A stretch of 20,000 bases of DNA from Bilabrum cf. latius (taxonomy: Eukaryota). The notes below the pieces were generated by a model, which saw only the letters and a list, made by a program, of their open reading frames with translations, was not told the DNA's origin and did no database searches. A program made the position numbers and the translations under genes. Each line of letters starts with the position of its first letter. The first letter of the stretch is position 1. Positions 1-19,072 of the stretch are shown here, in pieces. Location: positions 734,967 to 754,966 of the forward strand of contig OZ237768.1 in NCBI GenBank assembly GCA_965178125.1, in the 5' to 3' direction.

Positions 1-2068
1 GCGATTCTGGCCTAGGGCGTTGGCTGCCACGCGGGTGCACTTTCGCGCTTTTCGCACGTGCATCTACGGGGATTCCCAATCGAGCGTCCACCACCCCCCT
101 CCAGTCCTGCAATTCTTGCCCTGCAGCCCCAGCCAACTGTGATGGTGGTGATGCTGCAGTGGCGGCTGACCGAGACTGCGATGCATCACCCCCGTCCTAC
201 TTCCGAGAGGCACTTCCCGGTGCCCCAGAGCGGTAGTGGTTCCGTGTTAGCTCACGTACCACCCCCACAGCTCCCGGTGCCCCAGCACCCACCATCAGCC
301 GCCGCACCTCTCTTGACCCCCCTCCCCCTGTCTGTCCCTTGCCAAGCGCCTCCAGCACAGCCCGCACCCCCACCTCACCGCGGAGCGTAATCCGTCCTGC
401 TGTGCCCGCAGAGCCCCGCACCGCCCCAGCAGGCCCAGCCCCGAGAGCATCGGCCCAGCAGCCCAGGGACCACTCCCGCGCGATGTGCTCGCCTCCCCCC
501 TCCGCACCTATGTGCGCCCCGTCCGACCCCAGCCCATCTGCATGCCCCGCGACGGCCTCATAGTCACCCTCTGCCCCCAGCAGGCTCTCCATGGCCATCT
601 GCACGCCTGCCAGCGCGTCCCCCCACAGATCTTCGTAGTGGTGCAGGTGCGCCCGAACTCGCAGCAACTGCCCAGCCTGTCTTGCCAGCGCCCCCAAACA
701 AGGACCCATCCCGGCGTTGTTCCACAGAGCCACCGTCGATGGGCCCCCACTAGCCCCTGGCACAGAGCACAGCGCAGTCTTGACGGCCTTGCCCCCGCTG
801 CAGTACCACGGCATGCGCACGTGGCCGGCCGCGCGCCAGTCCTGCACGCATCTTTGCAGATCCCCAGAGGATACGCTGAACGATGGCACGGGTACGGACC
901 GCCGTGACCTGCTGCCAGCAGCCAGCCCCCGGCCTCCCGCCGCTGCCGCTGCCTCTGGCGCGCTCCTGGCCAGCAGGGCGAGGGCGAGGGTCCCACGGGC
1001 TCGGGGGTCCGTCTCAATCCCGTGCTGGGAGGGGTGCGCCGCCGCCCGCAACATCTCAGCGGCCGCACGAGGCATCGACCTGTCCCTGACCCGGGGCCGG
1101 GCGCCGGCCCCGGCCCCGGCCCCGGCCCCAGCTGCCTACACCTACTTGCCCCGCTGCCCGACGTCCCCCACGAACGGACTGACCGAGCAGGACGCGAAGG
1201 GGAGAGAGGGTAGTGGGACCAGGTTGGTCGGTAACTCGCCCAGGTCCAGGTGCAGGGGGCCTCCAAACCGTGAGCCAGCCGCGATGTCCACCAGGGCCTG
1301 GGCTGCCACCCGGTTGGCGGTCTCGAAGGCAGTCAGAGCTTTTGACTTGCCGGCAGGGCGGGGCTCCTCCGCTGCAGAGAGGTCCGTGCCGCCCGCAATC
1401 GTGTTCATGGCAGCATTTGTGAACGGAATCACGAGTGACGCGTGCTGCTGCAGCTGCTCCAAGGCCAGCACGGCATTGTATGGGGCGGTGACCACATCGC
1501 TGTCATGTGCGCAGCTCGCCCGACTCGGTGGAGCAAAACTGTCCGGGGCTACAACAGCAGCTATCCTGTCTATATCGGAAAATGCGTCGGCGCACTGCGC
1601 CAGCAAGCGAGTTCCCAGTCCAGAACCAGTCCCGCCGCTCAGCGAATGCAAGAAAAGCAGGTTGCCCGGACTGTCACACGACTCCAGGGATCGCCTGACT
1701 TGGCCTTCTAAACTTGAGCCATGAACAGACCAGTGCTCGAAGTGGCCATGAGCCCAGTTGTTCCCGGATCCGGGCGAGTCCTTAACCAAAGAGCAATGCT
1801 AAAACAAAGGAGCGTGCTTGCCTTTCAAAAGTTGGGCAAGCACTCCTTCCTCCATGTCTACCAAAACAGCCCTTGCGCGTAAGTGCCGGAGAGATAGTCC
1901 GCCTGCATTTGTATCAGGTGCGTGCGACTCGATCTCGAAGAAGGGAGAGAGGTGCTACAAGCTTGCTGATGTTGCGGCGCTTCGCTCAGCCAAGAGCTCG
2001 TTCCAAAACTGCCAGCCAATTTGATTGCCGCACTGCCCTACCTGCACGACAACTGTTTCTCTAGGCAT
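1..2068 (-). CDS. TUBE1: Epsilon-tubulin, divergent, with low-complexity insertions and a long C-terminal extension; 3' end runs off the window; 5 in-frame TAG
   Basis: ATG at 2068 gives [22 protein letters not shown]...[15 protein letters not shown]...[10 protein letters not shown]...[13 protein letters not shown]...[13 protein letters not shown]...LPTNLVP...RAHLHHY. ARAVLxDMEEGV, GSGNNWAxGH and AHLHHY are epsilon-type. ORF-track pieces 1142..1789 and 197..1075 share this frame, joined across TAG at 1955-57, 1799-1801, 1142-44, 1136-38 and 197-99. No TAA/TGA occurs in frame down to base 2. Confidence 0.9.
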
Positions 2069-2384
2069 TACATCAATATTCCGTTAACAGCGCTGACATG
2101 GTTTTGACCCGCACGTAGCTGCTAACGAATGATGATGCCGGCCCGGCGAGACTGTGCAGAAGTAGGTTCCGCCGCGGCTGTGTGTTGGCGTGAACACGTG
2201 GGAAACTGGCGGGCAGCAGTAAAGGTAACTGCAGGGCATTTTGGAGCAATACTTGCGACACGTGGGCGTTGCACCGGTGGGTTCTGCCTTCGGACGGTGC
2301 GAACTGCTCCAAATTCCCGAGTCCGTCCACAAAGGCTGTAAGCCTTCCCGCTGCACAACGCAGACCCACAGCCCCTTCAGCCCC

Positions 2385-5090
2385 TCAGCCGCACCCGGAA
2401 CATAGGCCTGGCACGCACCCGGCGCAAGTCAGCGGGTGCAGCCCGCTGGCCTTCGCCACGGCCACTCCGATGGCTGTGGTGCCCTCTCCCAGCACAAACC
2501 CGGTTGCAACCAGCAGGCCCTGGATGCCCTCCAGCCCGCCGGTCGGGCTGTGTCCTGCAGACTCAGGACAGCCACAGGGGGCAGCACAAGGGGCCAGCCA
2601 TCCCCTCCTCCACGCCTCCATGGCCAGTGCGCCCAGCACGCGCGGCAGCACAAACGAGGGCGATATGTACATGCCCACGGCCACTGCCATGAGGGACGGA
2701 CGCACAGACACCAGCCACAGGGGACATCGGCACCGTCCAGGGGCACCCAACGAGCTAGTCGCGCCTGCTGCTCCTCCCAGCTCCACCTCGGCCGGCATCA
2801 GGGGGCTGGAGGCATCCTCGGCTGTGCCTCGCCTGCCTCGCCTACCTCGCCCCTCCACACCAGCAGCTGCTAGGCCATGTGCCCCTGACTCCTCCCCCGA
2901 GTCATCCAATTCGTCTCCTGGGGTCACCTGCGCCCTATGCTCAGCACTTGCCCTGCCAATCCCGCTGTCGCCCGAATCAGCAGCCTCGGTGTCGCATGCC
3001 AGCATCTGCACGAGCGCGATCACCATGGACAGCCCAGCGCCGATGCCCGCAAACAGAGGCGCATTGGCGGGCAGCGGCTCTCCTCCTGCCAGTCGAGCCA
3101 TGTCCAACCACACCTAGGCAGTTGGGACCTGCAGGGTGGGGCCCCCCAGCGTATAGGCCGCCGTAAACAGCTGGTAAGCCCCCACAGTGGCGACGACTCC
3201 CACTAGAGAGCCCACTAGCTGGGCCCACAGCTGGGAAATGGGGAATGCGCCCAGCAGGTAGCCTGTCTTGAGGTCCTGCATGAGGTCCCCGGCCTGCTGT
3301 GCGCCTGCCTCGGCCACAGCCCCCGCCAGCAGATTGGACACGATCCGGCCCGGGGCCATGCACGCGAATGCAGCCTGCGCGATCTTACCCACCCCCGAGA
3401 CCGGGTTGAGGTCAGTTTCTCCCAGGGCTCGCACTGCGATGACTGCCACCACGACGCACAGCAGCAGGGCCACAAGCGGCTCCCAGACAGGCACCTTGAA
3501 GACGAGAGGGACCACCAGGGCGCACAGGGCAGAGGACAGGAGCAGCCCAGGGACCCACAGGCACATGGGGATGTCGCCTCGAGATGATGATGACGTGCTG
3601 CCCAGCGTGCCACCCGCTGCGCTGGCAGTTTCTTGTTTGGCCCTGCAGCACACTATGCCATACCGCAGCACGGTGCTTCCCAGCGTCACCACGCTCTCGC
3701 CCAGCATAATGCCCAGAGAAACCCACACCACCCATCCCTTGGCCCCATCCGTCCAGCTTGATACAGGTCCCGGCGCCCACCCCATCCGCATGGCCAATGG
3801 AGCCAGGATGCCCCATGCTAGGAGGGCGCCCACACCCATGCTGAGGGCAGGCCGCAGACCCATTATCATGCCCTGCCCCACGTAGGAGAGCGAAGGGGAC
3901 ACGTACCAGCCCAGCTGAGTGGCCTAAAGCGGAGCCCCCAGCCAGTGCAGCACGGGCATTGCCCCTGCCACTGGGACAAGTGCGCCCAGCACAGTCACCC
4001 CGGACGCAGCGGCGCAGGCCTTGCACATGGGGCCCAGTGGGGGAACTGCTGATTCGCCTGATTCGCGAGAGTGCGAGCCCTGCGGATCTTGCCGAGGGCC
4101 TGCATCTATCTCCATCTGGGCCTGATGATGGGGGTCATTGGGTGCTCTAGCAGCAGCAATAGTCTTTCCCGGGGCTGCTGCAGGAAGCACGTGCGCATCC
4201 GGTGCACCGGAGGGCCGAGCGTCCGCTCCCGAGTCCGGTATGGCAGGAACTAGGCAGGAATGCGTCCCCTCCGCCCGTGCTAGTGCCCCTGTCTCCCCGT
4301 GTAGTGCCCCGATTACAACAGCCGTGGCTGTGCCGGACGGAAATTTCAGTTTCTGCACCTCAATGGCATCCCTGCGAAGAGGGACTGCCAAGAATACCCC
4401 AAAGAAGGCCAGGGCAGCGCACCATCCAAGCTGCTGGGCCCATGATAGAGTCACGCCCTCCTCCGATGAACTATCCTATTCATAATGCACATGCGCGGCC
4501 ATTGCCACAGTCGCATTCAATCGGCCTGGCCCATCCACGGCACAAGTTGACTGCAATGCTACTACCCCCGCACGAGTGTCTTCAATTTCTAGTTCATTGT
4601 GCCCCAGCAGAGTCAGAGCTGGAATAATCCCTACAAACCCTCCGGCAAGCGGCATTGTGCCGGCTGCGACCGCAGTTGTTTGCAGGGCAACGTTCTCCAA
4701 AGGCGTGAACCCACTCGCCCAAGACATAGCAGCGACGCAGCAACACTTTGCAAACACGCTCTACTTTGGTGATTTCGCGTGGGGCCTTGATTTGTCTCTT
4801 GAGCTCGCCAATAACGACGAGTCCTCTTCATCGACCTACTACTCTGTTTTATTACTTTCTGGTCGTGCCGAAATGGTGTGTGACTCGTTTGAACTTGGAG
4901 AGACTTTGCAAATTGCATCAACAGAACGAAGCACTCCGAAACCGAGAACAGCTGCTTGAACAGAGGCCATGGTGATCCAACCAGTCTGCAGCCCAAAATA
5001 CATGTTGCTACAACACAAAATTACCCCAATTATCGATCCAACAAATAATGCCCGACATGATGCCTGTGGTTCGCTATCTGCAGACATCAT
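2385..5090 (-). CDS. OPT superfamily (YSL/YGL114W-like) oligopeptide/metal-chelate transporter, about 901 aa; 6 in-frame TAG
   Basis: Five ORF-track fragments (4839..5174, 4476..4757, 3924..4454, 3114..3902, 2385..3113) share one frame, separated only by TAG at 4839, 4836, 4761, 4476, 3924 and 3114. Motifs: NMYFGLQTGW, FTPLENVALQT, LKFPSGTATA, SYVGQGMIMG, RALGETDLNPVSGVGK, QAGDLMQDLKTGYLLGA, ATGFVLGEG. Ends at TGA 2385-87. Start is ATG 5090 or 5087. Confidence 0.9.
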
Positions 5091-5239
5091 GCTGCACAGT
5101 AAAACTGGAAAATCGTTGCTCTTGGCAGGCTCCGAGTTCGTTCTCTCTCTCGCAGAAAATTGAATGTGCTCCACATTCTAAACATCCAAACACACAGCTT
5201 GGTTCGCAACATTTGCTTACCTGATGCAACGATAAAGTG
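5091..5239. promoter_or_regulatory. Probable bidirectional promoter region (149 bp) between divergent OPT and GPN2 genes
   Basis: Inferred only from the head-to-head gene geometry and lower GC. No specific motif identified. Confidence 0.4.
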
Positions 5240-6448
5240 ATGAGTATTCACGGATAGGTCGTCGTTGGACCCCCGGGGTCGGGCAAGACAACGCACTGTA
5301 GAGCAATGAAATCCATCTTGGCTGCTTTCGGACGAAGGCCAATTCTTGTCAATCTTGACCCTGCAAACGATGCTAGCATCCGAGCTCACGTAGTGGCAAG
5401 TGCGACGTAGGGGGGTGATTATCCTGCATCAGAGTCAGACAAGCAGCTGTTTGATATCGACGTGCGGGAACTCGTTGCATTGGAGGATGTAATGGAGGCA
5501 ACAGGGCTTGGGCCGAATGGGGGCCTTGTTTATTGTCTCGATCTAGTGCTCAAAAACGTTGGGTGGCTATCTAAGCAGCTTGCGGCTGCCATCGAAGACC
5601 GAGAAACAGAGCTGGGTGAGCTGCAGCCTTACCTGGTGTTTGATTGCCCGGGGCAGGTTGAGGTGTACACGCACGGGACTCAGATTAAGAATGTATTAGA
5701 TCATTTGCAGCGAGAGAGTGATCTGCGCCTGTGTGGCGTGCACTTGGTGGATGCGTCGCATTGCTCTGATGCCTCCAAATTCCTGTCTTGCACCATGCTG
5801 TCGCTGAGCGCCATGACGCGCATGGAGATGCCATGGGTGAACGTCCTCTCCAAAATCGACACATTTTCGGCGTTTGGAGCGCCCCCGCTGGGCCTGGACG
5901 CGTACACAGATGGCTTAGACCTTGAGAGCGTGCTGGACTCGGCCGCTGGCCCAGGGATAGGCGGTGCGCCGGGACTTTCTCTTGCTGGTGATGGCGGTGA
6001 CGGTGACGATGATCGTGATGGTGCAGACAAAGTGCAGTGTGGCGAAGCAGGTAGCTTGATCTCCCACGATGCGCCGGCTGATGGTGGTTCTAGCTCTACA
6101 GGCGAAGCGCCCCCGGCACACTCAGGAACCAGTGGTGCTAGCTCTCCAGTAGCGCCACGCAGCCGGGCCTTCTTCAAGCGATGGCGCAGCCTGCACAGGG
6201 CCATGGTAGGCGTCATGGACAGTTATTCATTGGTAGGCTTCCTGCCCAGCACGGTCAAGGATGCCAGAGCCACCACCCGGCTGCTGCGGCGGTGCGACAA
6301 AGCCACCGGGTATGCCTTCGGAGCGCTGCACGCCACCACCGAGGCATCCGTGGCGGGCATGATCGACCGTGCTGACGTTGACAGCGACACTACTGCAAGA
6401 AGAGAGGCCGAGGAGGCCGCCATGGAGGCTCTCCTTGGTGTCATGTGA
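5240..6448 (+). CDS. GPN2: GPN-loop GTPase 2, 402 aa; 2 in-frame TAG
   Basis: ATG 5240 gives MSIHG(TAG)[14 protein letters not shown]...VNLDPAND, in frame with ORF 5462..6448 ([38 protein letters not shown]). GPPGSGKT and GPNGGL with DCPGQVE..TH fit GPN2. TAG at 5255-57 and 5408-10; ends TGA 6446-48. Confidence 0.93.
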
Positions 6449-6647
6449 CCCTTGGCCTCGATCGAATCCGGCTGAGTTGTTGCGTAGGTCTAGAACAGTC
6501 TCTACGACTCGGAGTCTGCCCCGGAACCAATCCATCCGTGGGCGATTGCATATCCAATTCAAATGGCCATGATTCGAATAATTGCACTGCAATGGTGAAC
6601 TTATATTTCCTGGCCTTATTAGTTTGTGCTCCCGGATCGAAAATATC

Positions 6648-9086
6648 ATGATTGCAGCTGCAGTCGTGAGTGAGAGCGGAAATATCCTCGGAGCATCCGA
6701 GCTGCAACTGAAACCGCACGCCCTCGCGTCGGTTCGCAGTACTAACCCTTGGTGGGGGCATGGAGTCAAGTTTGCGTGCGCAATGCTTAAGTTTAGCGGT
6801 GATCTGTCGCGACAACTCTCCTCGGGTACTCACGATGAGCAACAAGCCGGCAGCAAGCCGTTGTGTCGCAAGGCAAGAGCAGGCATTGAGTTCGACTCGT
6901 CTGCTTCAGCCATAGCTGAGGCTGTCACACTAATACATGATAGTACTGGTAGTGCTGTCGACGGAATCCATGAGGTCTTTGTGTGCACATTCGCGTGGCA
7001 TCGAGATGATCCAGAACTTGCGTGTTGGGTGCACGGTGCAGCTGAGGCCCTGTGCCGAGCCTTGTGCACTCTACTGCAGAGGAAGGTGCCTATCAACGAT
7101 ATTGTGGCAGTAATTGCATCGTCTGCCTCCAATGCAGAGGCTAGGGCGGCAAACGATGCCGGTTCGTACACTGCTCCAAAAACTGGCGGTCCAAAGGAAG
7201 ATACTGCCAGTGTGCTGCAGAATCAAGCCATCGGAGTATGGTTGACGCAGGTTGTTGGTTGCAGCATGGTCACTCCTTCTCGGATTCGCGTCATCCGCAC
7301 GTGCCGCGATCGCCACGGCAAGCCCATGCCAGTCAATGGTAGGGCAGGCCTTCCTCCTCGATCCCCCTTGCACGCGGGCGCCGCTGGCACCATGCCGAAG
7401 GGGACCTTGCTCGCTGCATCACAGACGAGGAAACGGAGTCAGGTGTATCGGCAGCTAGTGCAGGGCGCAGGCTGGGCCATAGACGCCGCCTCTCCAGGTG
7501 ATGCTCCACCGAGTGAGGCCTCCTTGTGGGTGCGGCGACTGGTGGAGGAGCTGCCTCCTGTGGCAGTGCCTGCCACCAGCAGGCAGGGAGGCGGGCATGA
7601 TAGGGCGGGTCACCATCAGAGTAAGGTCTTTCTGCTTGAGTAGACTCCGAGAGGTGCATCTCCTGCTGGTGCACGCCACGGACGAAGGAAGCCGCAAGTT
7701 TCGACACATGCAGTTCTGCATGCCGCCCAAAGGCAAGGCACAGGCCTGCACCCTGTCGTGGCCGGCTGGATGTTCCCATTTGTGCAGTAGCAGTACGTCC
7801 TCTGCATGCCATCGGGAGAAAAGCCTGCATCTGCTGGATTAAGGGCTGGATCGGTCCTCGTCGGGATTCGGCTGCTTGCAGACGGCACCGACATGGACCC
7901 GAAAGGCAGGAGGGCTTGCCTGCTGGCGGCCGTGGTACTGCAGGCAGGCCCACCAAGGGTCCAAGCAGGCACGTCTTTCACTGGTGCTGAACCTCTTGTG
8001 TCCTCAACCAATCATCGAGCGATGCCAGTAGGGTACCTGGGAGTTTCCCAGTGCGAGGTGACTGTGCGGGTGTCTGGTACTCGGCGCGAGTCAGTCCGAG
8101 GAGCCAGCGCCAGTACCAGCTGGCAGTGGGGAGATCCCACTTCATTCCAGCTGCCTTTTGGCCCTGAGACTGGCAGTGACAGCAAGACAGGCAGTGGCCG
8201 GGCAACCGGGCTGAAGGCAGAGAGGAGTCGACAGCGGGCGTGGGTGTCGGCTGTTGGGCGCCTAGTAGCCGCAGTAGGCTCACAGGATCCAGTGCTGAGC
8301 ATGCACGATAAGATCGTGGCTGCGTTGGGCAGGCCACTGCTGGTTACTGCACAGTCCGCACTAGCCATCGCTCGAGCAGCGGGGGACAGAGATTCCCCCG
8401 GGCTAGCCCAGTCGGCTGGTGGACGAGATTCGGATGCACCATCCGCGGCATCGACGGGCCAATTGCCACGATCAGCTGCAACCGCAGGCACCCCGATCCG
8501 CAAGATGCCCCGGGTGTCCCCGTTGCAGAGACGGATCAAAGGGGCAAATAGAGATGGCAGGTCGAGCACCGGAGGTGCCCCCGGCACTGACGAGAGAAGC
8601 CTGACTGAAGGGGGCTCCCGCATGTCGCATGGCAGCCAGCTAGACCACAGTTTTGTGGAGAGTGCAGTCGCAGCGATCGCCGAGCCCAGGGGGGATGTGT
8701 CCACTCCAGGCGTGGATTCTGCCCGCAAGGGTTCCTCACCGTCCGGACTGGTCCTCGCCGGGCTGGACAGCGCCCGCATGGACATGTCACTACTGGCTTC
8801 AGGGAGGCAGGGGGGGGGGCACGCAAGTGGGGCTGGTAACGAGGAGGAGGGGTCTACTGTGGAGGCGACCAGTGGCAGTGGCCCTGTGCAAGGCAGGGCT
8901 CTGGAAGATGAATTCGAGGCTGTTGCTGACAGTGCTGGGACACTTCCTGCAGCGGCAACCGGCAGTGCCACAGGGCCGCCATTGCCCGCAAATGAGGGCC
9001 CTAGACGGCCCCACAGAGGGGGGCGAAGGTACAGAGCAGTAAGGGGGGCTTGCACTGCCAGAGGAGGCGATCCAGTCTAGGGCTGA
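6648..9086 (+). CDS. Hypothetical protein, about 812 aa; 3 in-frame TAG
   Basis: ORFs 6582..7643 and 7806..9080 share a frame, joined over TAG 7641-43 and 7788-90. TAG 9078-80 is followed by GGC TGA (9084-86). First ATG is 6648. It fills the gap between GPN2 and the convergent PITH gene. No family recognised with confidence. Confidence 0.7.
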
Positions 9087-9151
9087 GAGCAGCCGAACAC
9101 GGTTGTCGCGAAAACACGATCATTTCCGGTATTTCATGAACAAAACTCAAC

Positions 9152-9877
9152 TCAACTTATGCCGTACTTTCCACCGAGGTCCTCTTTCGTCGCATCTGTA
9201 CATTTCTTGGAGCCGAGGACCTCATACACTGCTCCTCTCACAGGTCCGCGCTTGAGCTTCGTGTCAGTCCCGTAAATGCCAATGTACTGCACGTGGCAGC
9301 TCTCATCCTCCCCAAACGCTTTCCTAAAAAACAGCGTTAGATGGTACACGCTGTGGAATTTGCCAGGGCGGGTACTGTACCGCATGTCGCCCTTGCAGTC
9401 CTTAGCTAGGTCCAGGTCCTAATCTGCTTTGATGTCTTCAGCCAGCCCGAAATCCATGTCCTCCCTATTCACGAATACCCCGAGGTCACTTGGATGATTC
9501 TCACTGTCTGGTCCCCCGATGCTGATCGCATGAATTCTCACAGCAGTACGAAACGGTATGTGCACGATCATTTCTGGATCACAGTCGTCGCTTTCAAGCA
9601 CAGGTTCTGGGTTCATTCGCATGTCATACGGTTTAAACGGTGCCTTCGGGTCGCTGCCTGCTGCCTCATTCATACATCGAACATTATCAAGGTCAATGCT
9701 AGAGAGCAGAGATGAGTACGATGTGTCTGCGGTCTCCATTTCATCTTCTTCGCTTGAGCCCACTTCATCTGCTCGCCTCGGGGCGCCCCGAAGCCCGGTT
9801 CGCATGGTAAACCCCAACAATGTGCTACCACCTGGTCTCGAACCACCACCACTACTGTCTCCTCCGGCGGATGCCAT
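9152..9877 (-). CDS. PITHD1: PITH domain-containing protein (PITHD1-like), about 241 aa; 1 in-frame TAG
   Basis: SLLSSIDLDNVRCMNE...LESDDCDPEMIVHIPFRTAVRIHAISI...FVNREDMDF...KAD(TAG)DLDLAKDCKGDMRYSTRPGKFHSVYHLTLFF...FGEDESCHVQYIGIYG. ORFs 9419..9907 and 9152..9385 are in frame across TAG 9419-21; ends TGA 9152-54. First in-frame ATG is 9877. Confidence 0.88.
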
Positions 9878-10252
9878 GTTGCAGTCAAGACCGCCTGATG
9901 TGGCCACACTGCAACTGTTCGTGTTGGCAGCGGAACTGGAACCGGAGCCGTGCGCGGCGCCAGTCTCGCCCCACCGACTGCTTTCCTAGCAGTGCCAGGA
10001 TTCATGTAGTCCCACTTTGCTCTCGTATCTTTATAGCTTGCATTTTCATTGGCCGATACTTTGCCGTGAGGCCTATCATGCCCTTTTTCCGGTCTGACTC
10101 GATCGTTTTCTTGGTTATTTGCTTGTGTATCGTCGTTTGCCCCTGGGTTTGTTTGTTTTTGCAGTGATTCCATACCATTTCCGACCAAAGAATAGAACTA
10201 TGATTCTTGGTTTGATGAGCAAACGAGCCAAGCTGACGCCGACTTGAAGCAG

Positions 10253-12862
10253 ATGGCGTACAATTCCCGCTTTCCGGGATCTGCCTATGACCTGGTGCCG
10301 GCTGCTTCGAACGTCATAACTCAAGCACACATCAGTGTGTTTGACCGGAGAGTATATATCGGACCAAGCGCAAACGACCACACTTCGAGATGCGACTAGC
10401 CTGCGAAGAATTGGTTCAGTTCACAAAACGTCCTGGCTAGCACTGGGAGTAGCGTAGAATCCGTAGTGTTATGGGGGGCAGGTCCGCGGCTGGGTCTTGA
10501 TGCTCGGACGCAATGGGGTTGGGTCATGCGAGGCCCGGGAGGCAATGCATCGGTCGTGCAGCTGATCGCGGACCTGCATGAAAACCAGCCTGGCGTGCAG
10601 GTCCTGCTGGGCTACGTGGTGAGCTGGGCCCACTGTCCGCTCGTATCTTCCCAACCGCCTTTCGATGGCATGGCTTCATCGCTTTATCGTGCTCTTACCC
10701 CTTATCGACCGCAGCCCTGGGACAATGCCACGTTCGGCACGCAGACGCCGGCAACGCCAGATGAAGGTAGGACCAGCAGTAGCAAGGGGCTGGCAGCCTC
10801 TCTGTGCGGGGCCCTGCTTGACCTATTGGCCGAGTGGGGGGCGGATGGGGTGTATGGCCTGGGCGTGGGGACCTTCGACTCGTCCTGCCGAGAGCGGAAC
10901 GAGACGTTGTCCGGTATTCGTATCGGAGTGGACGCTTACGTGCTGCAAGGCGATGCACCCATGCAGGTGGACGGAGAGGGCTTGGCCCCTCTCTCGTATC
11001 AGTCCACATCTGCACTAGCCTGGGTAGACGGGGAGGTGCCCGATGCGGCGCAGGGTACAATGCACAGCTCATATCTGCTCGCTGAACGTTCAACTGCCAC
11101 ACCAGATCTGGATTCATCGTTTGCAGCCACGCAGCAAGTGCAGTATCCATGGCTGCGGTTCATGGAGCGAAGGCACCAGCCCTTGGTGGGCAGCGCTTTC
11201 TTCTCGCGCAGGACGTGGCAAGTGACCGCAGCTTTCCTGGCAGGTGGAGGCATGCAGGTGCGAGAAGAGGCGTGGGGCGCGATGCCCAATCCACTGCGAC
11301 CCAGGGACCGAGAAAGGGTGAGGAGGGCAGGTGTGATGCTGGCGCAGGTAAGGGATATCGCCCACGGGGCTTCACTCCGTATTTCGTAGGTACCGAGGCA
11401 TCCACAGGAACAGGCTGGGAGAGGAGTAGCCGCGCCCCCGGTGAATGGTACGCTACTGCCCTACTGGCCCGTGTTAGCCGGCGGCAACTCCACCGATGCA
11501 CTGGCCACTGCCGTCACTGGCCCGTGCCCCACTTCTCTTGGCTTCGACAGCGCCACTGAGGGGTTGTGTGCGCTGTGGCTCGTGGCAGGACCACCGAGTG
11601 AATCGCACGACGATGCTCCGGTGAGGGTCAGGCTTAATGCGTCCATCTGCTCTAGCGTGCAGGGCGGGGATTCTGGCGGAGCTGGCTGCGGCCTCGCCGT
11701 GAACCTCTACTCGGGGGCAAACGAAACGGTCAATCAGACTGGGGCGGCCCCCACGGACTGGACCATTGATGTCCACGTGCTACCGGGCGCATTTGCAGCG
11801 GTAGTTGGTGCACCAAGCAGCGGGGGGCTCGTGAAAGCAGCAGGCAAGAATGCCTAGAGCTTCATCAAGCCGCTGTCATCATTTGCAGACGTGTGGAATC
11901 AACCCATCGGCAGGCACGAACCAGTTTCTCCGTCGTAGCCTAGGTCCTCATCGCCGGCTGGAACTGTGCTGGTGCCAGGCAGCTTCTCTTTCCCGTTCCA
12001 GTCAAGGCTGCTGCTCCCACTTGAGTTTGCAGACGCACCAGACGCGATCGCTTCCGGGAACACGGGCTCTGAGGGCTTCAGCGGAGTGCAGTACCCATGG
12101 TCCTCCCGAAGGCGACCTGTCGCGAGCAAGACGCTGGCTGTCTCCCCGTTCTACGCAGACTAGCAGCTGGTGACCAACCGGTAGTTCTCCGCTTACCTTA
12201 GCCAATCACGGTTCTTGCCCAACTGCACTCGCAATTGGCTCGCGCACTGGGACAGATCTGATGTAACACCGGCGCAGTTGCGGGGGGGCAGCCATGCGCA
12301 AGGAAGCACGGCACCTGCTCCTTCCAAAGAAATCCTGGATCGGCCGGTGGTGTGGGTGAGCCGCGGCGATGCAGATGCGTTCTGCCGGTTCCAAGGGAAA
12401 AGGCTGCCGCGTGAGTGGGAGTGGGCGGCAATGGCTACGATGGATGGCAAAGGCAGGGTGGACTACAATGAGTTTCCCTGGGGGAACGACACGTGCTCAC
12501 CGGGAGACTCCAGGTGTGCGTCCAATGTGACAGATCCGGCACTCGGGCTGGCTGGTCCCTCTGAGGACGTCGGGAAGCACTTGACCGGGAATAGCCCTCT
12601 TGGAATCCAAGACCTCGTTGGGCTAGTGTGGCAGCATACAGATGCGATCTGTGATGCCTTCACGTGCAGCAGTGTTCTAAAAGGCGGATCCTAGTACCGG
12701 CCTGAAGTAATCGCAGGAAAGTACGCCAAATACGTGCGATCAGGCCCTCAATCGGTCTGGGCTGCCATGCTGCTGCCTCTGCTGGATGATGCGTCAGGGA
12801 GGTCGGCTTTCGTTGGATTCAGGTGTGTGGCCGATACACCGGCTTTCCAGTCGGAGGATTGA
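10253..12862 (+). CDS. Large protein with C-terminal FGE-sulfatase (SUMF1/C-type lectin-like fold) domain, at least 869 aa; 7 in-frame TAG; start uncertain
   Basis: ORFs 10466..11389, 11441..11857, 11966..12163 and 12215..12694 share one frame, joined over TAG at 10397, 11387, 11855, 11936, 12161, 12182 and 12692. FGE motifs: FYAD..LVTNR.F, PVVWVSRGDADAFC...KRLPREWEW, FPWGN, NSPLGIQDLVGLVWQ, VLKGGS, and VGFRCVAD after the last TAG. Ends TGA 12860-62. The frame is open back to 10070 (one more TAG at 10193). Confidence 0.85.
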
Positions 12863-13670: not shown

Positions 13671-14388
13671 TTAGGGGGGTTTAGGGTTAGGGTTAGGGTT
13701 AGGGTTAGGGTTAGGGTTAGGGTTAGGGTTAGGGTTAGGGTTAGGGTTAGGGTTAGGGTTAGGGTTAGGGTTAGGGTTAGGGTTAGGGTTAGGGTTAGGG
13801 TTAGGGTTAGGGTTAGGGTTAGGGTTAGGGTTAGGGTTAGGGTTAGGGTTAGGGTTAGGGTTAGGGTTAGGGTTAGGGTTAGGGTTAGGGTTAGGGTTAG
13901 GGTTAGGGTTAGGGTTAGGGTTAGGGTTAGGGTTAGGGTTAGGGTTAGGGTTAGGGTTAGGGTTAGGGTTAGGGTTAGGGTTAGGGTTAGGGTTAGGGTT
14001 AGGGTTAGGGTTAGGGTTAGGGTTAGGGTTAGGGTTAGGGTTAGGGTTAGGGTTAGGGTTAGGGTTAGGGTTAGGGTTAGGGTTAGGGTTAGGGTTAGGG
14101 TTAGGGTTAGGGTTAGGGTTAGGGTTAGGGTTAGGGTTAGGGTTAGGGTTAGGGTTAGGGTTAGGGTTAGGGTTAGGGTTAGGGTTAGGGTTAGGGTTAG
14201 GGTTAGGGTTAGGGTTAGGGTTAGGGTTAGGGTTAGGGTTAGGGTTAGGGTTAGGGTTAGGGTTAGGGTTAGGGTTAGGGTTAGGGTTAGGGTTAGGGTT
14301 AGGGTTAGGGTTAGGGTTAGGGTTAGGGTTAGGGTTAGGGTTAGGGTTAGGGTTAGGGTTAGGGTTAGGGTTAGGGTTAGGGTTAGGG
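13671..14388 (+). repeat. Telomeric repeat tract 1: irregular TTAGGGGGGT start, then 118 x TTAGGG
   Basis: Perfect TTAGGG from 13681 to 14388 (708 bp). Confidence 0.98.
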
Positions 14389-14445
14389 TATCTAATATAA
14401 AGTCAGGGACAGGGTCGGGGAAAAAATATTTTCATCTTCAAAATA

Positions 14446-15201
14446 TGTCGAATTTTCGCGGATTGAGATCTCGGCAACTACTGGTGATATGAAGATGATT
14501 CGAACGGCAATAGGACGGCCGTAGGGCACAACATGGGGCAAAATTTTGTCAGGTTCCGTTTAAGTCGCGCGGCGCCGATATTGGGGTTTGAAGGTTTTGG
14601 TGTCGAATTTTCGCGGATTGAGATCTCGGCAACTACTGGTGATATGAAGATGATTCGAACGGCAATAGGATGGCCGTAGGGCACAACATGGGGCAAAATT
14701 TTGTCAGGTTCCGTTTAAGTCGCGCGGCGCCGATATTGGGGTCTGAAGGTTTTGGTGTCGAATTTTCGCGGATTGAGATCTCGGCAACTACTGGTGATAT
14801 GAAGATGATTCGAACGGCAATAGGATGGCCGTAGGGCACAACATGGGGCAAAAGTTTGTCAGGTTCCGTTTAAGTCGCGCGGCGCCGATATTGGGGTTTG
14901 AAGGTTTTGGTGTCGAATTTTCGCGGATTGAGATCTCGGCAACTACTGGTGATATGAAGATGATTCGAACGGCAATAGGATGGCCGTAGGGCACAACATG
15001 GGGCAAAATTTTGTCAGGTTCCGTTTAAGTCGCGCGGCGCCGATATTGGGGTTTGAAGGTTTTGGTGTCGAATTTTCGCGGATTGAGATCTCGGCAACCA
15101 CGGCAGATATGAAGATGATTTAAACTGCATGTGGACGGGGCAGGGGCATAGCATGATTTATTTGTACCTCAGGTTCCGTTCCGGTCGTGCGGCATCGATA
15201 T
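14446..15201. repeat. 155-bp tandem array: 4 near-perfect units plus 1 degenerate partial unit
   Basis: TGTCGAATTTTCGCGGATTGAGATCTCGG recurs at 14446, 14601, 14756, 14911 and 15066; the last unit diverges after about 33 nt. Confidence 0.96.
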
Positions 15202-15455
15202 CTTTAAGTGATTGGGACATATCTGTATGATATGCATTTTTAAATGTAAGTAGTAGTATGGATGTGGTGGATACAATTATGTTGTTTGATTGCGTTGATA
15301 GCAGATATTCGTTGGCCTATAGTCAAGACTAAACAGAATGCCTCTTGGCTCCTACTATTATGTCCTAACGGGTCACTGGCTGGCACTTTGGCAAGCTCCT
15401 CTCACAAGCTGGCCCAGCTGCCACTGACCTCAATTGCCATCCGATTGGCTGCTTT

Positions 15456-16043
15456 TCACTCGTCATCGGAGGAGGGTTCCGCACCGACAGCTGCCAGGAG
15501 CGCCTCCACAGCGTCCACGGCCTCCGCATTGAGATCTCCTTCAGCCGTCTTCTCGAGGGCCGTCATCAGGTCTGCGAGCGTGCCAATTCCGTGGTCCCTC
15601 TCTTCAATTGTTTCCTCCACGTCCTCGACCATATCGTCGAGAGTCCGGCTGACGCCCAGCGCGGTGTCATCGCAGGCAGCGAGGATGCGGTCCAGCAGGT
15701 CCCGCTGCTAGTCGGTGAAGCCGTTGTCCTCCACTCCACCGTCGTTCTCAGCGTCGTCTTGCTGGTTCTGGGCCTCGTTCTCTTCTTCCTCATCCAGCTC
15801 GTCCCCATCCTCCTCGTCCTGCTGCACGAGCCCTATCGGAGCCTCATCCTCGTCCTCCTCTCCGGCTGCGTCTGCGTGGTACCGACCACCGATCTCCTCT
15901 TCATCTTCCTCAGAGTCCTGTCGAGGCAGTGATGCTGCTGCTCCACTCCTTGCGCCACTTGCTCCCCGCTTCTCCTGTTCAACGGCGTGGCGAGCTCCTC
16001 CGCCATAGCCCGGTTGGAGAACGGGCGATCGCTTGGGTTGCAT
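15456..16043 (-). CDS. Element-encoded acidic protein, 195 aa from ATG 16043; the frame is open upstream to the telomere junction, so probably the 3' part of a truncated gene
   Basis: ORF 15708..16043 reads through TAG 15708-10 into QRDLLDRILAACDDTALGVSRTLDDMVEDVEETIEERDHGIGTLADLMTALEKTAEGDLNAEAVDAVEALLAAVGAEPSSDDE and stops at TGA 15456-58. Upstream of the ATG the frame reads (TAG)ARTKAAGKSKSKSKGKAKSKGARSAEP(TAG)GRHAEAAPPAK. Confidence 0.65.
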
Positions 16044-16167
16044 CTTAGCCGGAGGCGCGGCTTCAGCGTGCCTGCCCTACGGCTCTGCCGATCGGGCACC
16101 CTTGCTCTTCGCCTTGCCCTTCGACTTGCTCTTCGACTTGCCCGCGGCCTTGGTCCTGGCCTAGGGG

Positions 16168-16170
<3 letters not shown>

Positions 16171-16199
<29 letters not shown>
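16171..16199 (+). repeat. G29 homopolymer at the element/telomere junction
   Basis: CTAGGGGTTA-G29-TTAGGG read directly. Confidence 0.9.
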
Positions 16200-16202
<3 letters not shown>

Positions 16203-17135
16203 GGGTTAGGGTTAGGGTTAGGGTTAGGGTTAGGGTTAGGGTTAGGGTTAGGGTTAGGGTTAGGGTTAGGGTTAGGGTTAGGGTTAGGGTTAGGGTTAGG
16301 GTTAGGGTTAGGGTTAGGGTTAGGGTTAGGGTTAGGGTTAGGGTTAGGGTTAGGGTTAGGGTTAGGGTTAGGGTTAGGGTTAGGGTTAGGGTTAGGGTTA
16401 GGGTTAGGGTTAGGGTTAGGGTTAGGGTTAGGGTTAGGGTTAGGGTTAGGGTTAGGGTTAGGGTTAGGGTTAGGGTTAGGGTTAGGGTTAGGGTTAGGGT
16501 TAGGGTTAGGGTTAGGGTTAGGGTTAGGGTTAGGGTTAGGGTTAGGGTTAGGGTTAGGGTTAGGGTTAGGGTTAGGGTTAGGGTTAGGGTTAGGGTTAGG
16601 GTTAGGGTTAGGGTTAGGGTTAGGGTTAGGGTTAGGGTTAGGGTTAGGGTTAGGGTTAGGGTTAGGGTTAGGGTTAGGGTTAGGGTTAGGGTTAGGGTTA
16701 GGGTTAGGGTTAGGGTTAGGGTTAGGGTTAGGGTTAGGGTTAGGGTTAGGGTTAGGGTTAGGGTTAGGGTTAGGGTTAGGGTTAGGGTTAGGGTTAGGGT
16801 TAGGGTTAGGGTTAGGGTTAGGGTTAGGGTTAGGGTTAGGGTTAGGGTTAGGGTTAGGGTTAGGGTTAGGGTTAGGGTTAGGGTTAGGGTTAGGGTTAGG
16901 GTTAGGGTTAGGGTTAGGGTTAGGGTTAGGGTTAGGGTTAGGGTTAGGGTTAGGGTTAGGGTTAGGGTTAGGGTTAGGGTTAGGGTTAGGGTTAGGGTTA
17001 GGGTTAGGGTTAGGGTTAGGGTTAGGGTTAGGGTTAGGGTTAGGGTTAGGGTTAGGGTTAGGGTTAGGGTTAGGGTTAGGGTTAGGGTTAGGGTTAGGGT
17101 TAGGGTTAGGGTTAGGGTTAGGGTTAGGGTTAGGG
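16200..17135 (+). repeat. Telomeric repeat tract 2: 156 x TTAGGG
   Basis: Perfect TTAGGG over 936 bp. Confidence 0.98.
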
Positions 17136-17192
17136 TATCTAATATAAAGTCAGGGACAGGGTCGGGGAAAAAATATTTTCATCTTCAAAATA

Positions 17193-18103
17193 TGTCGAAT
17201 TTTCGCGGATTGAGATCTCGGCAACTACTGGTGATATGAAGATGATTCGAACGGCAATAGGACGGCCGTAGGGCACAACATGGGGCAAAATTTTGTCAGG
17301 TTCCGTTTAAGTCGCGCGGCGCCGATATTGGGGTTTGAAGGTTTTGGTGTCGAATTTTCGCGGATTGAGATCTCGGCAACTACTGGTGATATGAAGATGA
17401 TTCGAACGGCAATAGGATGGCCGTAGGGCACAACATGGGGCAAAAGTTTGTCAGGGTCCGTTTAAGTCGCGCGGCGCCGATATTGGGGTTTGAAGGTTTT
17501 GGTGTCGAATTTTCGCGGATTGAGATCTCGGCAACTACTGGTGATATGAAGATGATGCGAACGGCAATAGGATGGCCGTAGGGCACAACATGGGGCAAAA
17601 GTTTGTCAGGGTCCGTTTAAGTCGCGCGGCGCCGATATTGGGGTTTGAAGGTTTTGGTGTCGAATTTTCGCGGATTGAGATCTCGGCAACTACTGGTGAT
17701 ATGAAGATGATGCGAACGGCAATAGGATGGCCGTAGGGCACAACATGGGGCAAAAGTTTGTCAGGTTCCGTTTAAGTCGCGCGGCGCCGATATTGGGGTT
17801 TGAAGGTTTTGGTGTCGAATTTTCGCGGATTGAGATCTCGGCAACTACTGGTGATATGAAGATGATTCGAACGGCAATAGGATGGCCGTAGGGCACAACA
17901 TGGGGCAAAATTTTGTCAGGTTCCGTTTAAGTCGCGCGGCGCCGATATTGGGGTTTGAAGGTTTTGGTGTCGAATTTTCGCGGATTGAGATCTCGGCAAC
18001 CACGGCAGATATGAAGATGATTTAAACTGCATGTGGACGGGGCAGGGGCATAGCATGATTTATTTGTACCTCAGGTTCCGTTCCGGTCGTGCGGCATCGA
18101 TAT
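17193..18103. repeat. 155-bp tandem array: 5 near-perfect units plus 1 degenerate partial unit
   Basis: Unit starts at 17193, 17348, 17503, 17658, 17813 and 17968 (degenerate). Confidence 0.96.
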
Positions 18104-18357
18104 CTTTAAGTGATTGGGACATATCTGTATGATATGCATTTTTAAATGTAAGTAGTAGTATGGATGTGGTGGATACAATTATGTTGTTTGATTGCGTTGA
18201 TAGCAGATATTCGTTGGCCTATAGTCAAGACTAAACAGAATGCCTCTTGGCTCCTACTATTATGTCCTAACGGGTCACTGGCTGGCACTTTGGCAAGCTC
18301 CTCTCACAAGCTGGCCCAGCTGCCACTGACCTCAATTGCCATCCGATTGGCTGCTTT

Positions 18358-18945
18358 TCACTCGTCATCGGAGGAGGGTTCCGCACCGACAGCTGCCAGG
18401 AGCGCCTCCACAGCGTCCACGGCCTCCGCATTGAGATCTCCTTCAGCCGTCTTCTCGAGGGCCGTCATCAGGTCTGCGAGCGTGCCAATTCCGTGGTCCC
18501 TCTCTTCAATTGTTTCCTCCACGTCCTCGACCATATCGTCGAGAGTCCGGCTGACGCCCAGCGCGGTGTCATCGCAGGCAGCGAGGATGCGGTCCAGCAG
18601 GTCCCGCTGCTAGTCGGTGAAGCCGTTGTCCTCCACTCCACCGTCGTTCTCAGCGTCGTCTTGCTGGTTCTGGGCCTCGTTCTCTTCTTCCTCATCCAGC
18701 TCGTCCCCATCCTCCTCGTCCTGCTGCACGAGCCCTATCGGAGCCTCATCCTCGTCCTCCTCTCCGGCTGCGTCTGCGTGGTACCGACCACCGATCTCCT
18801 CTTCATCTTCCTCAGAGTCCTGTCGAGGCAGTGATGCTGCTGCTCCACTCCTTGCGCCACTTGCTCCCCGCTTCTCCTGTTCAACGGCGTGGCGAGCTCC
18901 TCCGCCATAGCCCGGTTGGAGAACGGGCGATCGCTTGGGTTGCAT
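18358..18945 (-). CDS. Element-encoded acidic protein, second copy
   Basis: Matches 15456..16043 at offset 2902; internal TAG 18610-12, TGA 18358-60. Confidence 0.65.
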
Positions 18946-19069
18946 CTTAGCCGGAGGCGCGGCTTCAGCGTGCCTGCCCTACGGCTCTGCCGATCGGGCA
19001 CCCTTGCTCTTCGCCTTGCCCTTCGACTTGCTCTTCGACTTGCCCGCGGCCTTGGTCCTGGCCTAGGGG

Positions 19070-19072
<3 letters not shown>

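What the first reader, a model, noticed from the sequence alone, without database searches (positions are those of the whole stretch)
1..12862. Variant nuclear genetic code: UAG read as a sense codon, most likely glutamine
Seen: all six genes are single long frames interrupted only by TAG (5+6+2+3+1+7 = 24). This includes tandem TAG-TAG (4836-41), TAG as codon 6 of GPN2, and TAG upstream of the conserved terminal GFRC motif. Known: GPN2 starts with F-[GA]-Q-x-V-I-GPPGSGK, and here it is HG(TAG)[15 protein letters not shown]1 has PD-Q-TFSL, and here it is AD(TAG)DLDL. FGE domains have VTNx[QE]F, and here it is VTNR(TAG)F. Inference: genome-wide UAG=Gln. Caveat: two TAGs fall at positions that usually hold Asp (tubulin 1799) or an aromatic residue (FGE 12692).
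Basis: partly seen in the sequence, partly recalled or inferred. Interest (0 to 1): 0.92.

Follow-up and report, generated by a model that had tools for sequence, protein, structure and literature searches.

The report
Stop codon UAG read as glutamine
A GC-rich single-celled eukaryote writes ordinary, expressed nuclear genes with the stop codon UAG inside them, most likely read as glutamine, while UAA and UGA stay out of reading frames. This rare kind of genetic code is already known from a few other protists.

Summary
Six genes in 1-12862 carry 24 in-frame TAG, no in-frame TAA or TGA, and all five complete genes end in TGA. Pfam domains run across the TAGs.

A DNA contig matches the window without a difference. 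Spliced, transcript-shaped contigs from three other runs (two studies) keep every TAG they cover, so the TAGs are neither edited nor spliced out.

The region is nuclear: it has GT..AG introns and TTAGGG arrays.

Glutamine is the best reading.
- GPN2 codon 6 sits in a column that is Q in 116 of 119 homologues.
- Two sister strains have Q where the window has TAG 1799, and their ORFs stop where the window has CAG.
- A more distant metagenomic relative also uses in-frame TAG, once opposite a window CAG.

TAA is not a sense codon: 0 seen against about 8.8 expected.

Distant-homologue columns alone favour Q only weakly. The tRNA, eRF1 and the genome-wide pattern could not be tested because no genome is held.

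This is a new member of a known kind (UAG=Gln with UAA kept, as in Iotanema and some ciliates). I could not name the lineage, and five literature searches found no description of it.

The parts
2..2068 (-). Tubulin-family gene. ATG at 2068; the frame is open at the window start. In-frame TAG at 1955, 1799, 1142, 1136, 197.
   Evidence: Pfam Tubulin E 2.2e-32, residues 5-225, spanning two TAGs. TAG positions. RNA-like contigs cover it with 0 differences at the TAGs. The orthologue in L001 has pN 0.27 against pS 0.80.
2385..5090 (-). OPT oligopeptide transporter gene; ends in TGA. TAG at 4839+4836 (tandem), 4761, 4476, 3924, 3114.
   Evidence: Pfam OPT E 7.2e-90. The contig of run X5 covers 480-5092 with 0 other letters.
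5240..6448 (+). GPN-loop GTPase 2 gene; ends in TGA. TAG at 5255 (codon 6) and 5408.
   Evidence: Pfam ATP_bind_1 E 6.6e-52. Best named homologues are GPN2. The column at codon 6 is Q in 116 of 119. Three RNA-like contigs cover it unchanged.
6648..9086 (+). Gene of unknown family; ends in TGA. TAG at 7641, 7788, 9078 (the last is two codons before the TGA).
   Evidence: No Pfam family. X5 contig 6568-9136 has 0 other letters. Positions.
9152..9877 (-). PITH-domain gene; ends in TGA. TAG at 9419.
   Evidence: Pfam PITH E 2.1e-43, residues 97-262, spanning the TAG. The TAG aligns with Q of TXNL1 and D of At3g04780. RNA-like contigs of 3 runs cover it.
10253..12862 (+). Gene with a C-terminal FGE-sulfatase domain; ends in TGA. 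TAG at 10397, 11387, 11855, 11936, 12161, 12182, 12692.
   Evidence: Pfam FGE-sulfatase E 1e-16, residues 618-862. PDB alignments. Spliced contig 10165-10617 + 10714-13139.
10066..10164 (+). 99-nt GT..AG intron upstream of the FGE gene's start.
   Evidence: The joint 10065>10165 is seen in X5, X6 and X7 and not in the DNA run X1. Sequence.
10618..10713 (+). 96-nt in-frame GT..AG intron inside the FGE gene.
   Evidence: The joint 10617>10714 is seen in X5 and X7 and not in X1. Sequence.
13681..20000 (+). Chromosome-end structure showing that the locus is nuclear. TTAGGG arrays at 13681-14389, 16197-17136 and 19099-20000; a 155-bp satellite; G29 runs.
   Evidence: Tandem Repeats Finder; repeat families.

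Best explanation
In this eukaryote's nucleus, UAG is an ordinary sense codon read as glutamine. UGA ends genes. UAA is not used as a sense codon and is probably still a stop.

Shown:
- UAG stands in frame in the DNA and, unchanged, in spliced RNA-like contigs of six neighbouring genes.
- It lies within conserved domains.
- At the one strongly constrained site it occupies a Gln column.
- Between close relatives it alternates with Gln or CAG.

Inferred, not seen: a tRNA with anticodon CUA charged with glutamine (one base away from tRNA-Gln CUG), and an eRF1 that has lost UAG recognition but keeps UAA and UGA, as proposed for Iotanema spirale. If TAG is Gln, it makes up 24 of 151 Gln codons here.
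For: Sense codon.
- 24 in-frame TAG against 0 TAA and 0 TGA in 3915 codons; 5 of 5 complete genes end in TGA.
- Pfam domains run across the TAGs.
- DNA contig X1 covers 1-13139 with 0 differences.
- In the listed pieces, X5 covers 24 of 24 TAG sites, X6 18 of 24 and X7 11 of 24. The only difference listed in 1-13100 is at 495.
- X5-X7 carry GT..AG joints that X1 lacks, so they derive from RNA.
- A relative (L001/L002) has 3 in-frame TAG in its tubulin orthologue and 4 in the gene upstream, at other positions than the window's. That orthologue is under purifying selection: pN 0.27 against pS 0.80 over 412 codons.

Glutamine.
- GPN2 codon 6 column: Q 116, H 2, gap 1 of 119. Human GPN3 also has Q there.
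- OPT 3114 column: K 47, Q 34, H 10 of 120.
- PITH 9419 aligns with Q in TXNL1.
- FGE 12182 aligns with Q in an actinobacterial FGE.
- Two sister-strain proteins (95-96% identical) have Q at TAG 1799. Both of their ORFs stop at the codon where the window has CAG.
- Relative TAG codon 20 lies opposite window CAG.
- Summed profile log-odds over 5 alignable sites rank Q first.

UAA.
- 0 in-frame TAA against 8.8 expected from the CAA/CAG ratio, P about 0.0002.
- In L001 the upstream frame's first non-TAG stop is TAA, followed by a drop in GC.
Against: - Distant-homologue columns alone barely separate Q from D or E: 0.2 against -1.5 nats over 5 sites.
- Tubulin TAG 1955 lies in a D/E column (D 50, E 44, Q 3 of 150), and TAG 1799 in a D column (D 98, Q 3 of 150).
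- FGE 12692 aligns with W of SUMF2, and 12161 with R or I.
- OPT 3924 lies in a hydrophobic column, beside an indel.
- Opposite TAGs, the relative or the window also show D, K, S and H.
- The stop codon that ends the sister-strain ORFs was not seen as DNA.
- Only six genes were examined. No tRNA(CUA), no eRF1 and no peptide evidence is available.
- The RNA nature of X5-X7 is inferred from splicing and contig shape, not from their records. The tool itself guesses X5 is 'probably DNA'.
Confidence: 0.85

Rival explanations
1. UAG is a sense codon but encodes glutamate (as UAG does in the ciliate PL0344 and UAR does in Blastocrithidia), not glutamine.
For: Tubulin TAG 1955 lies in a column with D 50 and E 44 of 150. 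TAG 1799 lies in a column with D 98 and E 10 of 150. The relative has D opposite window TAG 1955. SUMF2 and At3g04780 have D at two aligned TAG sites. In the profile sum, E is only 1.7 nats behind Q.
Against: E occurs 0 times in the 119-sequence GPN2 column, which is Q 116. At 95-96% identity the sister strains have Q, not E, at TAG 1799. TAG lies opposite CAG in the relative. In the OPT column E is 5 against Q 34 of 120.
Confidence: 0.05
2. UAG encodes some other residue: Lys, Ser, Leu, Tyr or Trp. Leu is used in the rhizarian exLh and Ser in Scotinosphaera.
For: In the OPT 3114 column K is the commonest residue (47 of 120). The relative has K opposite TAG 1799, and the window has S opposite one relative TAG. 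W aligns with FGE 12692. OPT 3924 lies in a hydrophobic column.
Against: K, S, L, Y and W each occur 0 times in the 119-sequence GPN2 column. The profile sum puts K at -4.1, S at -6.7, L at -9.4, Y at -8.1 and W at -12.2 nats, against Q at 0.2. The two sites with aromatic or hydrophobic partners lie next to indels or a following Y, so their alignment is uncertain.
Confidence: 0.04
3. UAG has two meanings: sense inside genes and stop near the 3' end of some mRNAs, as in Condylostoma or karyorelict ciliates. This can hold together with UAG=Gln.
For: TAG 9078 lies two codons before the TGA of the unknown gene and could be its real end. The tubulin frame shows no TGA or TAA before the window ends.
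Against: All 5 complete genes have a TGA at a sensible end, and none needs TAG to terminate. Five genes are too few to decide.
Confidence: 0.1
4. The TAGs are not translated. They would then be subtelomeric pseudogenes, assembly errors, RNA-edited sites or unrecognised introns.
For: The genes lie within 13 kb of telomere-type repeats, where decaying genes are common.
Against: - Only TAG interrupts the frames: 24 TAG, 0 TAA, 0 TGA, no frameshift.
- DNA and RNA-like contigs agree at all covered TAG sites, and no joint removes a TAG.
- The domains are intact.
- The relative's orthologue is under purifying selection and has its own TAGs.
Confidence: 0.01

Closest known systems
Iotanema spirale (fornicate) nuclear code: UAG=Gln, UAA and UGA stops
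   Same: Only UAG is reassigned, to Gln, in a non-ciliate eukaryote, and UAA is kept apart (passages of PMC9161772 read; PMC11687900).
   Different: Here the DNA is GC-rich (0.53-0.69), lies beside TTAGGG arrays, and includes a gene with an FGE-sulfatase domain. No protein closer than about 48% identity to GPN2 was found apart from sister strains. The eRF1 GTS-to-GGS change reported for Iotanema could not be checked. Whether the two lineages are related is unknown.
NCBI table 15-type ciliates (Protocruzia tuzeti, two phyllopharyngean lineages): UAG=Gln
   Same: The same codon meaning, with UAA not sharing it (PMC11687900, passages read).
   Different: TTAGGG arrays and 60% GC do not look like a ciliate macronuclear genome. 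That contrast rests on my own knowledge and was not tested.
UAR=Gln codes (table 6: many ciliates, Hexamita, Streblomastix, ulvophytes, Amoeboaphelidium)
   Same: A stop codon is read as Gln, presumably by a mutated tRNA-Gln.
   Different: TAA is not a sense codon here: 0 seen against about 8.8 expected.
UAG-only reassignments to other residues: rhizarian exLh (Leu), Scotinosphaera (Ser), ciliate PL0344 (UAG=Glu, UAA=Lys)
   Same: UAG and UAA have different meanings (PMC11687900).
   Different: The GPN2 column holds no L, S or E, and the sister strains have Q.
Blastocrithidia nonstop (UAR=Glu, UGA=Trp)
   Same: An intron-poor, gene-dense protist with in-frame stop codons.
   Different: There is no in-frame TGA or TAA here, and TGA ends 5 of 5 genes.

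Membership tests
UAG=Gln nuclear code with UAA and UGA as stops (NCBI table 15 type) | In-frame UAG in conserved, expressed genes, present in mRNA | tested here: met
   24 TAG in six genes, and domains span them. Spliced RNA-like contigs keep them.
UAG=Gln nuclear code with UAA and UGA as stops (NCBI table 15 type) | UAG aligns with Gln in conserved columns | tested here: met
   GPN2 column Q 116 of 119. Sister strains have Q at 1799. A relative TAG lies opposite window CAG. However, the other alignable columns are variable or D/E-rich.
UAG=Gln nuclear code with UAA and UGA as stops (NCBI table 15 type) | UAA is not a sense codon | tested here: met
   0 in-frame TAA against 8.8 expected. That UAA actually terminates genes is only hinted at by L001.
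UAG=Gln nuclear code with UAA and UGA as stops (NCBI table 15 type) | UGA terminates genes and is absent from frames | tested here: met
   5 of 5 complete genes end in TGA, and there are 0 internal TGA.
UAG=Gln nuclear code with UAA and UGA as stops (NCBI table 15 type) | UAG never ends genes | tested here: inconclusive
   None of the 5 genes needs TAG as its stop, but TAG 9078 is two codons from a TGA. The sample is too small.
UAG=Gln nuclear code with UAA and UGA as stops (NCBI table 15 type) | A tRNA with anticodon CUA and glutamine identity | not testable with these tools
   No genome is held. There is none in the window or in L001/L002.
UAG=Gln nuclear code with UAA and UGA as stops (NCBI table 15 type) | eRF1 altered so that UAG is not recognised | not testable with these tools
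UAR=Gln code (table 6) | UAA is also used as a Gln codon | tested here: not met
   0 TAA in 3915 codons.
Blastocrithidia-type code (table 31) | In-frame UGA read as Trp | tested here: not met
   0 in-frame TGA.
UAG=Leu (rhizarian exLh) or UAG=Ser (Scotinosphaera) | UAG aligns with Leu or Ser in conserved columns | tested here: not met
   L 0 and S 0 of 119 in the GPN2 column. Profile sums: L -9.4, S -6.7 nats.

The most novel reading that the evidence does not exclude
This is an independent, so far undescribed origin of the 'UAG=Gln, UAA kept' code in a eukaryotic clade that is neither ciliate nor fornicate. The clade comprises at least the window's organism, two sister strains and a relative with saturated synonymous divergence. 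DNA and RNA data already exist for it, so it could become a tractable model for how eRF1 tells UAG from UAA. Organisms of this kind could also be the missing hosts of the TAG=Gln giant viruses noted elsewhere in this scan. That last point is a lead only and was not tested.
Probability: 0.45. Interest if true: 0.75.

Novelty: new member of a known kind. Interest (0 to 1): 0.62.

Why it matters
- UAG and UAA almost always change meaning together. Each lineage that separates them tests how eRF1 and the tRNA pool can tell two codons apart that differ only in the third base.
- A GC-rich, gene-dense organism with existing DNA and RNA data would be a convenient system for that work.
- Gene callers using the standard code cut these genes into pieces. 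The sister-strain proteins in public collections are such fragments: 129, 133 and 319 aa. Annotation of this clade therefore needs table 15.

Tried and rejected
- Whole genome: none is held. Genome-wide inference, a tRNA(CUA) search and an eRF1 check were therefore impossible.
- tRNAs: ARAGORN gave one tRNA-Ser(GCT) call at 4014-4104, antisense inside OPT. Rfam found nothing in the window. L001 and L002 have no tRNA.
- Sequencing runs: no RNA holder is listed on record. The kinds of X5-X7 are guesses. I treat them as RNA-derived only because of the spliced joints.
- Parts of the unknown gene and of OPT have no listed cover in X6 or X7. I draw nothing from that.
- FGE whole-protein homologue search: no hit. 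The genome-contig scan with the FGE domain gave one gammaproteobacterial locus, L003, which I did not use further.
- Uninformative TAG sites: GPN2 5408 and OPT 4839, 4836, 4761 and 4476 fall in lineage-specific insertions. Tubulin 1142, 1136 and 197 lie in low-complexity or unaligned parts.
- OPT 3924 and FGE 12692 lie beside an indel or a following Y, so I treat their hydrophobic or aromatic partners as ambiguous.
- The profile log-odds are weak on their own, and the weighting gave one odd column: G 0.26 at OPT 3114.
- GPN2 tree: the query sits on a long branch (1.79) with no supported placement, and the careful search did not finish.
- Pfam on subtelomeric ORFs, on the ORF 12786-13367 and on the L001 upstream gene: no family.
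- Earlier findings of this scan: nothing for this genome or sequence.
- Literature searches found no paper on a GC-rich non-ciliate with this code. Supplements were not seen, and subscription papers are not in the library.
- Pyrrolysine-type or programmed readthrough was considered and dropped: the 24 sites are mostly at unconserved positions in six unrelated genes.


Full report
WHAT IS IN THE WINDOW

The first 13 kb hold six genes on both strands. Their GC content is 0.53-0.69. Under the standard code the frames break into pieces of at most 424 aa. With TAG read through they become six long frames of 689 (open at the window start), 936, 403, 834, 287 and 872 residues.

Pfam assigns five of the six:
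- Tubulin, E 2.2e-32, residues 5-225.
- OPT transporter, E 7.2e-90.
- GPN-loop GTPase (ATP_bind_1), E 6.6e-52. The best named homologues are GPN2.
- PITH, E 2.1e-43, residues 97-262.
- A C-terminal FGE-sulfatase domain, E 1e-16, residues 618-862.
- The sixth gene matches no family.

The domain matches run across the TAG codons.

THE OBSERVATION

After trimming each frame to the first ATG that fits the RNA-like contigs, there are 24 in-frame TAG. There are 0 in-frame TAA and 0 in-frame TGA in 3915 codons, and all five complete genes end in TGA.

- the tandem TAG-TAG at 4836-4841;
- TAG as codon 6 of GPN2, at 5255;
- TAG 12692 upstream of the terminal GFRC motif.

Summed over all six frames of 1-12862, the region holds 196 TAG, 88 TAA and 309 TGA. 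Random stops would therefore be TAG only about a third of the time. All 24 being TAG has probability of about 3e-12 (my arithmetic). In-frame TAG density (24 per 3915 codons) is close to the density across all frames. TAG is thus not avoided in reading frames at all, while TAA and TGA are fully excluded.

DNA AND RNA

One DNA contig of run X1 (26,997 nt) covers 1-13139 with no difference.

Runs X5, X6 and X7 come from two studies. Their records do not say RNA and the tool only guesses. They nevertheless give gene-sized contigs: 5185-6466, 6568-9136, 9120-9920, and 10165-10617 joined to 10714-13139. They also carry two GT..AG joints that X1 lacks. One is 10065>10165, seen in X5, X6 and X7. The other is 10617>10714, seen in X5 and X7 (sequences). 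I therefore take these runs to be RNA-derived.

In the listed pieces, X5 covers 24 of 24 TAG sites, X6 18 of 24 and X7 11 of 24. A further 120 pieces were not shown. The only base difference listed within 1-13100 is at 495. The TAGs are thus neither edited nor spliced out.

- The FGE gene has a 96-nt intron that happens to be in frame and open, plus a 99-nt intron upstream of its start.
- Contig ends are only a weak hint of transcript ends, so start codons remain inferences. TAG 10397 counts as coding only if ATG 10253 is used.

NUCLEAR LOCATION

From 13.7 kb onward the window holds three perfect TTAGGG arrays (118, 157 and more than 150 units). They are separated by a 155-bp satellite, about 1 kb of unique sequence and a G29 run, and the window ends inside the last array. 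The stretch near 13100-13500 has 19 to 38 times the single-copy depth in X1, as a shared chromosome-end element would. Together with the spliceosomal-type introns, this places the genes on a nuclear chromosome end.

WHICH AMINO ACID: DISTANT HOMOLOGUES

I aligned the best homologues returned by each search.
- GPN2 codon 6: Q 116, H 2, gap 1 of 119. Human GPN3 also has Q there.
- OPT 3114: K 47, Q 34, H 10, A 5, E 5 of 120.
- OPT 3924: F 44, V 36, A 9 of 120, but the site is next to an indel.
- Tubulin 1955: D 50, E 44, A 13, Q 3 of 150.
- Tubulin 1799: D 98, E 10, Q 3 of 150.
- PITH 9419: aligns with Q of TXNL1 and D of At3g04780.
- FGE 12182: aligns with Q of an actinobacterial FGE and D of SUMF2.
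- FGE 12161: aligns with R or I.
- FGE 12692: aligns with W of SUMF2, but a Y follows the TAG, so the register is uncertain.
- The remaining TAGs lie in insertions or low-complexity stretches and say nothing.

A simple profile sum over the five columns with deep alignments ranks Q first. The margin is small: Q 0.2, D -1.5, E -1.5, K -4.1, L -9.4 nats. On distant homologues alone the case for Gln rests mainly on the GPN2 column.

WHICH AMINO ACID: CLOSE RELATIVES

The protein libraries hold fragments from two sister strains, P0247 and P0397. They are 95-96% identical to the window's tubulin and sit on contigs of 4511 and 7718 nt. The 7718-nt contig also bears a 98%-identical GPN2 fragment, P0007.
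- Both sister proteins have Q exactly where the window has TAG 1799.
- Both of their ORFs stop at the codon where the window has CAG, residue 205. The natural reading is TAG in the sisters, but I could not see that DNA.

At 4-5% protein divergence, a TAG/Gln pair is much more likely to be a silent change than a replacement. I estimate this favours Gln by roughly an order of magnitude per site. That figure is my own inference, not a computed result.

A more distant relative was fetched from two metagenomes: L001 and L002, GC 0.54.
- Its tubulin orthologue has three in-frame TAG and no TAA or TGA over 431 codons.
- The gene upstream has four in-frame TAG.
- In the codon alignment, relative TAG 20 lies opposite window CAG. 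The other relative TAGs lie opposite TCC (S) and CAC (H).
- Window TAGs 1955 and 1799 lie opposite GAC (D) and AAG (K).
- The orthologues show pS 0.80 (saturated) against pN 0.27 over 412 codons, with 62% amino-acid identity.

Both genes are therefore under purifying selection, and each lineage has gained TAGs independently. That rules out decay. It also shows that the code is shared by a clade.

UAA

If TAA had the same meaning as TAG, the CAA/CAG ratio (34/93) predicts about 8.8 in-frame TAA. None is seen, P about 0.0002. In L001 the upstream frame's first stop other than TAG is TAA, after which GC drops from about 0.55 to about 0.46. Only UAG is reassigned. That UAA still terminates genes is likely but not shown.

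MECHANISM

- Shown: UAG is present in mature RNA and lies in translated, conserved parts of genes.
- Inferred from known cases: a tRNA-Gln with anticodon CUA, and an eRF1 that ignores UAG. Passages of PMC9161772 report for Iotanema spirale UAG=Gln, UAA as a stop, and an eRF1 GTS-to-GGS change.
- Neither gene is in the window, no genome is held, and no tRNA was found in the loci I had.

RIVALS

- Glutamate fits the two tubulin columns. It fails the GPN2 column (0 of 119) and the sister-strain Q.
- Lys, Ser, Leu, Tyr and Trp fail the same tests.
- A dual sense/stop meaning cannot be excluded with five gene ends. TAG 9078 sits two codons before a TGA.
- Pseudogenes, assembly errors, editing and hidden introns are excluded.

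COMPARISON WITH WHAT IS KNOWN

Passages of PMC11687900 list the nuclear codes in which UAG and UAA differ:
- an uncultured rhizarian (Leu);
- Iotanema spirale (Gln);
- Scotinosphaera (Ser);
- Protocruzia tuzeti and two phyllopharyngean ciliate lineages (Gln);
- another ciliate lineage (Leu);
- ciliate PL0344 (UAG=Glu, UAA=Lys).

The present case works like the UAG=Gln group (NCBI table 15). Of the defining features, four were tested and met: in-frame UAG in mRNA, Gln columns, UAA not sense, and UGA as stop. One was inconclusive (UAG never ends genes). Two could not be tested (tRNA, eRF1).

I could not name the lineage.
- Apart from the sister strains, the best GPN2 hit is about 48% identical.
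- The GPN2 tree leaves the query on an unplaced long branch.
- TTAGGG arrays and 60% GC argue against a ciliate. This rests on my own knowledge.
- Nothing tested here excludes a relative of Iotanema.

Five full-text searches found no description of such an organism. The library lacks most subscription journals, and supplements were closed.

VERDICT

UAG is a sense codon in this organism and its relatives. Glutamine is the best-supported meaning (about 0.85), and UAA is not reassigned. This is a sound new member of a rare but known kind of code. Its value depends on whether the lineage is new, which the whole genome and an 18S placement would settle.

Noticed in passing
window 13681-20000: Chromosome-end architecture. 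There are three perfect TTAGGG arrays (118, 157 and more than 150 units). Between them lies a repeated unit of about 2.9 kb: a 155-bp satellite (4.4 and 5.4 copies), about 1 kb of unique sequence, a 12/24-nt mini-repeat and a G29 run. Internal telomere arrays of this size are unusual. They could be real or an assembly effect.
   Followed up: partly
window 13100-13500: This stretch has 19-38 times the single-copy depth in the DNA run, with many loose ends at 13107-13117. It is probably an element shared by most chromosome ends.
   Followed up: no
window 10618-10713 and 10066-10164: Two short GT..AG introns (96 and 99 nt) in the FGE gene. The 96-nt one is in frame and free of stops, so it is invisible from sequence alone. 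No joints were seen in the other five genes.
   Followed up: yes
window 10253-12100: The roughly 600-residue N-terminal part of the FGE-domain protein has no Pfam family and no homologue of similar length in the word-based search.
   Followed up: partly
window 6648-9086: An 813-residue expressed protein with no Pfam family.
   Followed up: partly
window 2-760 (- strand): The tubulin-like frame continues for more than 190 residues past the tubulin C-terminal region without a TGA or TAA and runs off the window. Base composition by codon position still looks coding.
   Followed up: partly
window 4014-4104 (+): ARAGORN calls a 91-nt tRNA-Ser(GCT) antisense inside the OPT coding region. Rfam finds no tRNA there, so it is probably a false call.
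   Followed up: yes
window 6007 and 10940: One contig each in X1 and X5 joins 6007 to 10940 with only 22 matching letters on the shorter side. This is probably a contig from another locus sharing a short stretch.
   Followed up: no
L001 1-1689: In the metagenomic relative, the gene upstream of tubulin differs from the window's neighbour (OPT), so the loci are not syntenic. It has no Pfam family and appears to end in TAA.
   Followed up: partly
window 10201-10246: A short upstream ORF (ATG 10201 to TGA 10244) lies in the FGE mRNA just before the presumed start at 10253.
   Followed up: no
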